Below, piece after piece: positions 5,681-6,277 of a DNA stretch of 64,000 nt. Both the position numbers and the translations under genes were made by a program. Source of the DNA: Eledone cirrhosa (Eukaryota); assembly GCA_964016885.1 (NCBI GenBank), contig OZ024741.1:349432001-349496000 (forward strand). The letters are read 5' to 3'. The stretch's first letter is position 1. Every line of letters starts with the position of its first letter. A model generated the notes under the pieces. That model made no database searches. It was not told the origin of the DNA and saw only the letters and a list, made by a program, of their open reading frames with translations.

Positions 5681-5746
5681 TATATGTATATAAAATAAAA
5701 TAATTAAGTCAAATATTTAAAATTTGGCTTCGTTTATTAAAGATGT

Positions 5747-5801
5747 ACTGCTATATATATTTCGGTGACAGCAATCATTGACTGTGACCTCTTCAGGCAG
5801 T
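5747..5801 (-). ncRNA. Minimal type I hammerhead ribozyme
   Basis: Minus strand reads actgc-CTGAAGA-ggtcacagtcaatgattgctgtcacc-GAAA-tatata-TA-gcagt. Stem I is a perfect 5 bp, the core is intact and stem III is palindromic. Confidence 0.8.
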
Positions 5802-6001
5802 CCGAAGTTGTTATTTCTTTGAGGAACTGGAATCATATGAATTCGAACAAACGAATTTCGGCGTCATAGGACACTCTCTATGATTCCAGTTCCTCAGAGA
5901 AATAACAAATAACAACCCAACCAGGAGCTGGACATATCGGAGTATTGACGGAGTAAAACACTTCAACAACATGTGTACCTGTCTCTACCACACCAATTCG
6001 G

Positions 6002-6056
6002 ACTGCCTGAAGAGGTCACAACCAATGATGGCTGTCACCGAAATATATATAACAGT
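6002..6056 (+). ncRNA. Minimal type I hammerhead ribozyme (one mismatch at stem I pair 1)
   Basis: actgc-CTGAAGA-ggtcacaaccaatgatggctgtcacc-GAAA-tatata-TA-acagt. Confidence 0.7.
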
Positions 6057-6277
6057 ACATCTTTAATAAACGAGGCCAAATTTTAAGTATTTGACTTAAT
6101 TATTTTATTTTACATTACTCCAGAGTAACAAAACCAGCCTGTGTACTTCGTCGAGTGCTCCAATCTGCATACTGAGGTGCCGGTTAACAACCAATATATA
6201 CTCAAAATTTATATATATATATATACACATCACACACATATATATATATATACACACGTGTGTATATATACACATGT

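What the first reader, a model, noticed from the sequence alone, without database searches (positions are those of the whole stretch)
5691..6210. Nested inverted repeats with divergently oriented hammerheads
The outer ~115-bp arms each hold a hammerhead reading outward from the centre, and a second 30-bp inverted repeat lies inside. Only the right arm continues into a unique 3' tail that ends in (TA)n, the asymmetry expected for a PLE-type insertion with an inverted 5' duplicate. It starts ~10 bp after a different hammerhead family copy (5607), which suggests a reuse hotspot. A transcript from either strand would contain one ribozyme and its antisense.
Basis: partly seen in the sequence, partly recalled or inferred. 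Interest (0 to 1): 0.7.

Follow-up and report, generated by a model that had tools for sequence, protein, structure and literature searches.

The report
Two-armed Penelope retroelement end stub
This hairpin-shaped DNA is an ordinary, decayed leftover of a Penelope-type jumping gene (thousands of copies in this genome), likely written into a TA repeat from two fixed start points on the element's RNA, and its relatives share a stop point that likely marks where one class of that RNA begins.

Summary
The repeats, outward-facing minimal hammerhead motifs and one-sided tail are real, but they are not nested repeats. They are two head-to-head, 5'-truncated copies of one element end. A minus-strand copy (5879→5691) has no tail and a private ~80-bp deletion; a plus-strand copy (5879→6210) has a 98-nt tail. 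The parent is a Hydra-clade Penelope-like retrotransposon: full-length relatives encode a reverse transcriptase and C-terminal GIY-YIG nuclease with the Hydra motifs.

Across paralogues the inner breakpoints vary, while outer ends sit at two fixed sites beside (TA)n. 46 of 50 close pairs have exactly one tail, and both arms share a subfamily haplotype. This fits priming at two start sites and rules out a MITE. The architecture is published, and this scan has reported it on other DNA of this genome.

New detail: 41 of 105 terminal arms that reach one palindrome stop there, against 1 of 32 ORF-linked upstream repeats. This suggests two template classes. This copy is an exception, since its partner arm runs 41 nt past that site.

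The 5607 neighbour is a half-ribozyme stub of a second, commoner family. No RNA data were available.

The parts
5607..5679 (+). Neighbouring stub of a second, unrelated hammerhead-bearing PLE-like family: 16-nt inverted piece (5607-5622) plus a tail-less arm holding only the 3' half of the ribozyme; longer copies have a UUGAGAA/UUGAUAA core variant upstream
   Evidence: (23,434 exact matches of a 27-mer, control 0)
5680..5690 (.). Short TA run between the two insertions (target microsatellite)
5691..5879 (-). Tail-less arm: element positions e-41 to start site A, with an ~80-bp internal deletion relative to the family (88 bp relative to the right arm)
5747..5801 (-). Minimal type I hammerhead motif: intact core, 5-bp stem I, two changes in stem II, palindromic stem III; predicted cleavage after 5752
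5806..5808 (-). Deletion junction that splits the left arm into the apparent outer and inner repeats; unique in the genome
   Evidence: 1 match allowing 1 mismatch
5838..5878 (-). Apparent 'loop': upstream continuation of the left arm (e-41 to e0), including the conserved TCATATGA palindrome site
5879..6210 (+). Tailed arm: starts at e1 (family stop hotspot), has a 7-nt duplication near 5909, runs through start site A (~6112) to start site B (~6210)
6002..6056 (+). Minimal hammerhead motif with a broken stem I pair beside the cleavage site (after 6051) and a stem II mismatch; AATAAA at 6065-6070
6113..6210 (+). ~98-nt tail between start sites A and B; in tandem copies it runs on into the 5' UTR and ORF (84 such junctions in the genome)
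6210..6365 (.). (TA)n/(CA)n microsatellite on the tailed side

Best explanation
The locus is a short, decayed insertion of the 3' end of a Hydra-clade Penelope-like retrotransposon, made of two head-to-head copies of the same element end, one with and one without a 98-nt tail, likely produced when the element's enzyme cut a (TA)n tract and primed reverse transcription from each cut strand at a different fixed site (A or B) on element RNA. Shown: family identity, two fixed outer ends next to TA repeats, one tail per pair, variable inner ends, same-subfamily arms, and a private deletion that mimics a nested repeat. Inferred: the GIY-YIG nuclease cut both strands; the two truncated cDNAs were joined at their 3' ends through 0-few-base microhomology; the ~80-bp deletion and ~6% arm divergence are later decay. 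The hammerheads are passengers of the pseudo-LTR. Here they are predicted to be locked in a long hairpin if transcribed, and could cleave only as dimers if free. Less certain (about 45%): the inner-end hotspot at the TCATATGA palindrome marks the 5' end of a linear RNA from the pseudo-LTR promoter, while long tandem copies come from RNA without that end (circle or read-through).
For: Family: 3,815 exact matches to the 21-nt ribozyme core and 3,644 to a sister-subfamily 35-mer, controls 0. Parent: L034 runs into a GIY-YIG C-terminus (Pfam E 6.7e-4, below cut-off); L098 has an intact 892-aa ORF; L339 and L144 are full-length broken copies 91-92% identical to the window's right arm. Hydra motifs RWK, DKT, CxCX5C, CxxC, CxH are present. 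Outer ends: 82 at A and 72 at B among 154 arms; 12 further pieces ended elsewhere; 140 of 154 have (TA)4 within 30 nt. Pairs: 46 of 50 are one A plus one B (binomial p 4.5e-10). The tail-less arm reaches further 5' in 26 of 46, the tailed arm in 9, equal in 11; in 6 the arms do not overlap at all. Arms share minor alleles 255 times versus 40 discordant (41 pairs). Junctions overlap in 30 of 52, are blunt in 4 and have inserts in 18. In vitro, a PLE protein cuts and extends both strands and starts at two internal sites that bracket the tail (PMC11167929). Hotspot: 41 of 105 terminal arms versus 1 of 32 ORF-linked upstream repeats (p 4e-5); young subfamily alone 10 of 24 (p 4e-4).
Against: No RNA, cleavage or enzyme data for this family. 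One clear tail/tail pair (L052) and one ambiguous pair (L297). One-sided deletion at the centre of a perfect hairpin after insertion could also stagger inner ends. For the RNA-5'-end part: in this very copy and in L179 the partner arm runs past the hotspot (2 of 39 hotspot arms with a traceable partner, versus 10 of 70 for other arms; not a clear difference). No excess of 5' ends at the ribozyme cleavage site (e167) among 83 ORF-linked copies. No double-sided compensatory change in stem II among the 14 commonest variants; 37 of 219 arms did not parse. Pfam finds no RT domain in P0001 itself; a 38%-identical homologue scores RVT_1 at E 4.4e-5, below cut-off.
Confidence: 0.85

Rival explanations
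1. One cDNA was made from the tailed start site and then folded back at a palindrome (or an antisense RNA self-primed), copying itself to form the inverted arm; later deletions staggered the centre.
For: PMC3846280 proposes self-priming from palindromes at the inverted junction. The hotspot is a palindrome. Short snap-back pieces of 10-40 nt occur there (L126, L132, L180, L284). Some pairs are perfect hairpins at e0 (L290, L310). Arms share haplotypes.
Against: A fold-back copy must be nested inside the tailed arm. Yet the tail-less arm reaches further 5' in 26 of 46 pairs, including this one, and 6 pairs do not overlap. Unpaired arms end at either A or B beside TA. The hotspot is nearly absent where the same palindrome is passed upstream of an ORF.
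Confidence: 0.1
2. A DNA-type miniature element with terminal inverted repeats, or a fixed non-autonomous foldback element that transposes as a unit.
For: Long inverted repeats, TA flanks and high copy number.
Against: Inner breakpoints differ copy to copy and many copies have one arm only. The ends are unequal by a fixed tail. Longer copies run into an RT-EN ORF. This exact structure occurs once. No target duplication can be resolved inside TA.
Confidence: 0.02
3. The two arms are independent insertions that landed head-to-head in one TA tract, or the locus has been kept for a function such as a long double-stranded RNA.
For: TA tracts are reused by several families. The transcript would be a very stable hairpin.
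Against: No TA lies between the arms. One tail per pair and same-subfamily arms are the rule. The copy shows ordinary decay (deletion, duplication, stem mismatches). Expression was not testable.
Confidence: 0.03

Closest known systems
Hydra-clade C-terminal EN+ Penelope-like elements (Craig et al. 2021, PMC8557442; I read matched passages and section 11)
   Same: RWK, DKT, CxCX5C linker, CxxC and CxH around the nuclease end, no CCHH, no GxKF/Y, C-terminal GIY-YIG, hammerhead in the pseudo-LTR, (TA)n targets; inverted 5'-truncated copy with a tail at one end.
   Different: Unit is ~4.1 kb with an 892-aa ORF and a ~1.4-kb 3' UTR (Hydra elements are described as generally under 3 kb); the tail is ~98 nt rather than 30-40 bp. 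No tree against named Hydra families was built.
PAc/Poseidon PLE of Anolis: internal initiation of reverse transcription (Frangieh et al. 2024, PMC11167929; I read parts 1-2 of 4)
   Same: AT-rich target, both strands cut and extended, two internal start sites that define the tail, no sign that ribozyme-cut RNA is the usual template.
   Different: There the sites are adjacent and inside the ORF start, with no strand preference seen in vitro. Here they are ~98 nt apart, upstream of the ORF, and paired one-to-one within an insertion.
Minimal PLE hammerheads (Cervera and de la Pena 2014, PMC4209133; I read part 1 of 4 and matched passages)
   Same: Short helix I, long helix II, no stable helix III, dimer-type; dual motifs 100-700 bp apart on opposite strands are described there; a circular RNA template is proposed there. 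The neighbour family resembles the U3-A8 core variant.
   Different: Activity of this motif is untested; this locus has its two motifs on opposite strands, so they cannot dimerise in cis.
Drosophila virilis Penelope and Adineta Penelope insertions (PMC2377424, PMC3846280; matched passages only)
   Same: Partial tandems, variable inverted repeats, promoter and start site inside the pseudo-LTR, palindromes at inverted junctions.
   Different: A fixed inner stop used by short copies but skipped by long ones was not in the passages I saw.
Animal non-LTR retrozymes (bioRxiv 10.64898/2026.07.22.740005, part 1 of 5; PMC7761336, passages)
   Same: Type I hammerhead, PLE-related, non-coding at this locus.
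   Different: No head-to-tail monomers here; the sequence is directly the end of an autonomous element.

Membership tests
EN+ Penelope-like element | Single ORF with RT and GIY-YIG endonuclease contiguous with this end | tested here: met
   892-aa ORF with YRDD at 351 and VYG..YIG at 772-788 in sister copy L098; broken same-subfamily copies L339 and L144 are 91-92% identical to the arm. Pfam support is weak.
EN+ Penelope-like element | Pseudo-LTR from a partial tandem with variable 5' truncation | tested here: met
   84 tail-to-5'UTR junctions; upstream ends scattered from e300 to beyond e-699
EN+ Penelope-like element | Inverted 5'-truncated copy, tail at one end | tested here: met
   46 of 50 close pairs
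EN+ Penelope-like element | Target-site duplication | tested here: inconclusive
   Both flanks are TA runs; no duplication can be told from the target
Hydra clade | RWK and DKT motifs, GxKF/Y not conserved | tested here: met
   RWK 37, DKT 120, no GxK[FY] in P0001; DKT in all 10 aligned sequences
Hydra clade | CxCX5C linker, CxxC and CxH at the nuclease end, CCHH absent | tested here: met
   CNCRNPESC 752, CKLC 850, CRH 878; no conserved cysteine pair inside the GIY-YIG core, judged by eye
Hydra clade | (TA)n targeting and hammerhead present | tested here: met
   140 of 154 outer ends beside (TA)4; core in 179 of 182 parsed arms, a set partly chosen on the core
Hydra clade | Generally short (<3 kb; a tendency, not a rule) | tested here: not met
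   Unit ~4.1 kb
Hydra clade | RT phylogeny groups with named Hydra families | not tested
   No named reference sequences were on hand; supplements of PMC8557442 were not opened
Neptune clade (my first guess, from recall) | CX2-5CxxC linker plus CCHH motif | tested here: not met
   Linker is CxCX5C and CCHH is absent
Minimal type I hammerhead | CUGANGA and GAAA core, helices I and II, palindromic stem III | tested here: met
   Left motif folds to the hammerhead shape as its minimum-energy structure (-11.1 kcal/mol, isolated 55 nt); right motif has a stem I mismatch; stem III self-duplex -4.6. With flanks (71 nt) neither folds so.
Minimal type I hammerhead | Covariation in helices | tested here: inconclusive
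   Only loop and wobble changes among close copies; no Rfam match
Minimal type I hammerhead | Self-cleavage | not testable with these tools
   Needs an assay
MITE / TIR DNA element | Fixed terminal inverted repeats and constant structure | tested here: not met
   Variable inner ends, unequal outer ends, single-arm copies
Non-LTR retrozyme | Head-to-tail non-coding monomers each with a ribozyme | tested here: not met
   No tandem repeat at 5691-6210; arms are head-to-head

The most novel reading that the evidence does not exclude
This family records two template classes and a fixed asymmetric twin-priming step. A linear RNA that starts at the TCATATGA site gives the short arms, because its only start sites A and B lie near its 5' end (the AATAAA and the ribozyme cut lie upstream of the 3' pair). 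A ribozyme-made unit-length circle, which has no 5' end, gives the long copies and rebuilds the pseudo-LTR by running past the start site. That would be genomic evidence for the long-proposed circular template and would explain pseudo-LTR regeneration, with an intact young ORF (L098) available to test it.
Probability: 0.25. Interest if true: 0.65.

Novelty: new member of a known kind. Interest (0 to 1): 0.3.

Why it matters
The locus itself is ordinary debris, one of thousands. Its value is as an entry to a family with intact young copies and clean statistics on an open question, how Penelope-like elements make tandem and inverted ends. The one-tail-per-pair rule (46 of 50) turns a qualitative remark in the literature into a count that favours two coordinated priming events. 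The stop site used by short copies but skipped by long ones gives a precise, cheap test (5' RACE and divergent RT-PCR) of whether a ribozyme-made circle rebuilds the promoter repeat. It also warns that such hairpins can be mis-annotated as MITEs.

Tried and rejected
Rfam: no hammerhead family hit. Neptune assignment from recall: rejected after the motif check. 'Flip-flop' central spacer: rejected, the centre belongs to the left arm. Deleted segment as an intron: no GT..AG at its edges on either strand by eye, and the junction is unique. Mixed templates for the two arms: not seen as a rule; L149 (4 sites) and L067 (5 sites) are the most discordant. Ribozyme-cut RNA as usual template: no peak of ends at e167 among 83 copies; one copy (L224) starts there. 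Hotspot as an intrinsic RT stop: disfavoured, since 31 of 32 ORF-linked copies pass it (two near misses at e6 and e-5; a wider window gives 51 of 112 versus 4 of 33, p 4e-4). Circle versus tandem read-through: upstream and downstream repeats share haplotype in 19 tandem copies (of 21 examined), 0-5.5% apart, with three sites differing in two copies each; this fits both models and does not decide. An initiator-like TCAGT and a downstream-element-like GGACA have the right spacing (consensus recalled) but point to e18, not e0; not counted as support. PDB sequence search: nothing significant. Literature searches found no paper on this family or on the short-versus-long contrast; most subscription papers are not held, Lunse et al. 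2017 could not be read, and supplements were not opened. Rows dropped: 8 pairs of the first set (chosen on a tailed query), L051 (one arm split by an indel), overlapping duplicate loci, arms at locus edges, L266 (unmapped). L139/L141 look like one duplicated insertion and count once among pairs but possibly twice among arms.

Full report
Observation. Positions 5688-5806 (minus) and 5997-6115 match at 112 of 119 bases, and 5808-5837 pairs with 5879-5908 at 97%. The region folds into one long hairpin at -260.1 kcal/mol, z -29.8. Each long arm carries a minimal type I hammerhead motif reading outward: left 5801→5747, right 6002-6056. Both have core CUGAAGA, GAAA and a palindromic UAUAUAUA in place of helix III. 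The left keeps a 5-bp stem I; the right has a mismatch beside the cleavage site. Rfam does not recognise them.

Anatomy corrected. Of 29 paralogues, 15 carry the reverse complement of the 41-bp centre directly upstream of the arm. The locus is therefore two head-to-head copies of one element end. With e1 = window 5879, the minus copy runs e-41 to site A (~e225-237) and has an ~80-bp deletion whose junction is found once in the genome. The plus copy runs e1 to site B (~e322). The 'inner repeat' is the part of the left arm upstream of the deletion.

Parent element. Walking upstream gave a GIY-YIG C-terminus. A protein search found long open frames. L098 shows the full layout: inverted tail-less copy, tail, 5' UTR, 892-aa ORF, ~1.4-kb 3' UTR, ribozyme, AATAAA, site A, tail, site B, (TA)n. 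L098 is a sister subfamily (~80% to the window); L339 and L144 are broken full-length copies 91-92% identical to the right arm. I first guessed Neptune from recall. The paper's own criteria (PMC8557442, section 11) point to Hydra: RWK, DKT, CxCX5C, CxxC and CxH are present, and CCHH and GxKF/Y are absent. Pfam support for RT and nuclease is below cut-off; 883 homologues scored E ≤1e-20. Exact matches number 3,815 for this core and 3,644 for the sister.

How copies vary. I took the first matches in genome order on one chromosome (90 loci; 30 sister loci) plus 29 best ribozyme hits. Of 154 arms in the two pattern sets, 82 end at A and 72 at B, and 140 have (TA)4 within 30 nt; 12 other pieces ended elsewhere, mostly short snap-backs. 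Of 59 close head-to-head pairs, I set aside 8 chosen on a tailed query and one false split. Of the remaining 50, 46 are A+B, one is A plus a tail with an internal deletion, one is cut by a locus edge, one is ambiguous and one is B+B (p 4.5e-10). The tail-less arm reaches further 5' in 26 of 46, the tailed arm in 9, and they are equal in 11; six pairs do not overlap. In 41 overlapping pairs the arms share minor alleles 255 times and differ 40 times, many at CG sites. Junctions overlap by a few bases in 30 of 52, are blunt in 4 and carry inserts in 18.

Mechanism. These counts exclude a MITE and make single-strand fold-back unlikely as the general route, because a fold-back copy must nest inside the tailed arm. 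They fit cutting of both strands of a TA tract and priming from each end at a different fixed site on RNA from one source, followed by joining of the two truncated cDNAs. The enzymatic steps are inferred by analogy with the anole PLE, which cuts and extends both strands and starts at two internal sites bracketing the tail (PMC11167929). The inverted copy with a one-sided tail is described in PMC8557442, palindromes at the junction in PMC3846280, and paired minimal ribozymes on opposite strands in PMC4209133. Earlier notes of this scan report the same class on other DNA of this genome.

The extra detail. Inner ends pile up at e-4..e4, the palindrome TCATATGA: 41 of 105 terminal arms that reach it stop there, against 0-10 ends in neighbouring 9-nt bins. 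It happens in several subfamilies, and in single arms straight after (TA)n. Among 84 copies where the tail runs on into the ORF (83 mapped), only 1 of 32 that reach the site stops there (p 4e-5). The site is therefore not a simple stop for the enzyme. The most economical reading is a 5' end of one RNA class, in line with start sites inside the pseudo-LTR in Penelope and Chlamys, with long copies made from RNA lacking that end. A circular template was proposed in 2014, and pseudo-LTR regeneration was called unexplained in 2008. Against this: the window's own left arm runs 41 nt past the site (2 of 39 such cases versus 10 of 70 elsewhere). There is no peak of ends at the ribozyme cut. The match between upstream and downstream repeats in 19 tandems fits circle and read-through alike. 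No RNA run was listed. Microhomology of the site's ATAT with the TA target may add to the pile-up.

Neighbour. 5607-5679 is a truncated stub of a second family (23,434 exact matches) with the same two-ended design. It lacks the first half of the ribozyme core, and its 16-bp hairpin is a fold-back junction. That family lies within 200 nt of 9 of 198 arm ends versus 1.2% of control TA edges and 1.7% of long ones. This is a modest excess, best read as a shared target.

Verdict. A real, correctly guessed PLE insertion of a published type: a new member of a known kind, interest 0.3. The family statistics offer a testable lead on template classes (probability 0.25, interest 0.65 if true).

Noticed in passing
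window 10428-10559: Another stub of the second hammerhead family, single tailed arm between TA runs.
   Followed up: partly
window 49381-49588 and 50381-50587: Two near-identical ~200-bp copies ending in a tRNA-like segment (Rfam tRNA 43 bits, minus strand; ARAGORN finds none) directly followed by (TA)n; probably another TA-targeting repeat.
   Followed up: partly
L098:2413-5094 (G000:C2:291937500-291946500); also L099 and L100: Young sister subfamily with intact ~890-aa ORFs and arms ~100% identical, so probably recently active; many other copies show an open frame of only ~355 aa ending at the nuclease, suggesting a shared frameshift in the linker.
   Followed up: partly
L144 (G000:C1:40902800-40912000): Complex copy with two ORF starts facing each other, both upstream repeats starting at e279, inside a larger inverted pair.
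   Followed up: no
second-family loci L314-L333: Longer copies carry a UUGAGAA/UUGAUAA core, resembling the U3-A8 hammerhead variant, and show the same tailed/tail-less ends with fold-backs clustered just inside stem II.
   Followed up: partly
L149 and L067: The two pairs whose arms differ at the most shared variant sites (4 and 5); candidates for insertions made from two different RNAs.
   Followed up: no
L127, L139, L146, L171, L189 outer ends: Some tailed ends are followed by (CT)n rather than (TA)n, continuing the C of the element's own next bases.
   Followed up: no
window 14388 and 14523: Inverted pair of a CTGATGA-containing repeat beside long TA arrays, picked up by a loose ribozyme scan; not examined.
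   Followed up: no
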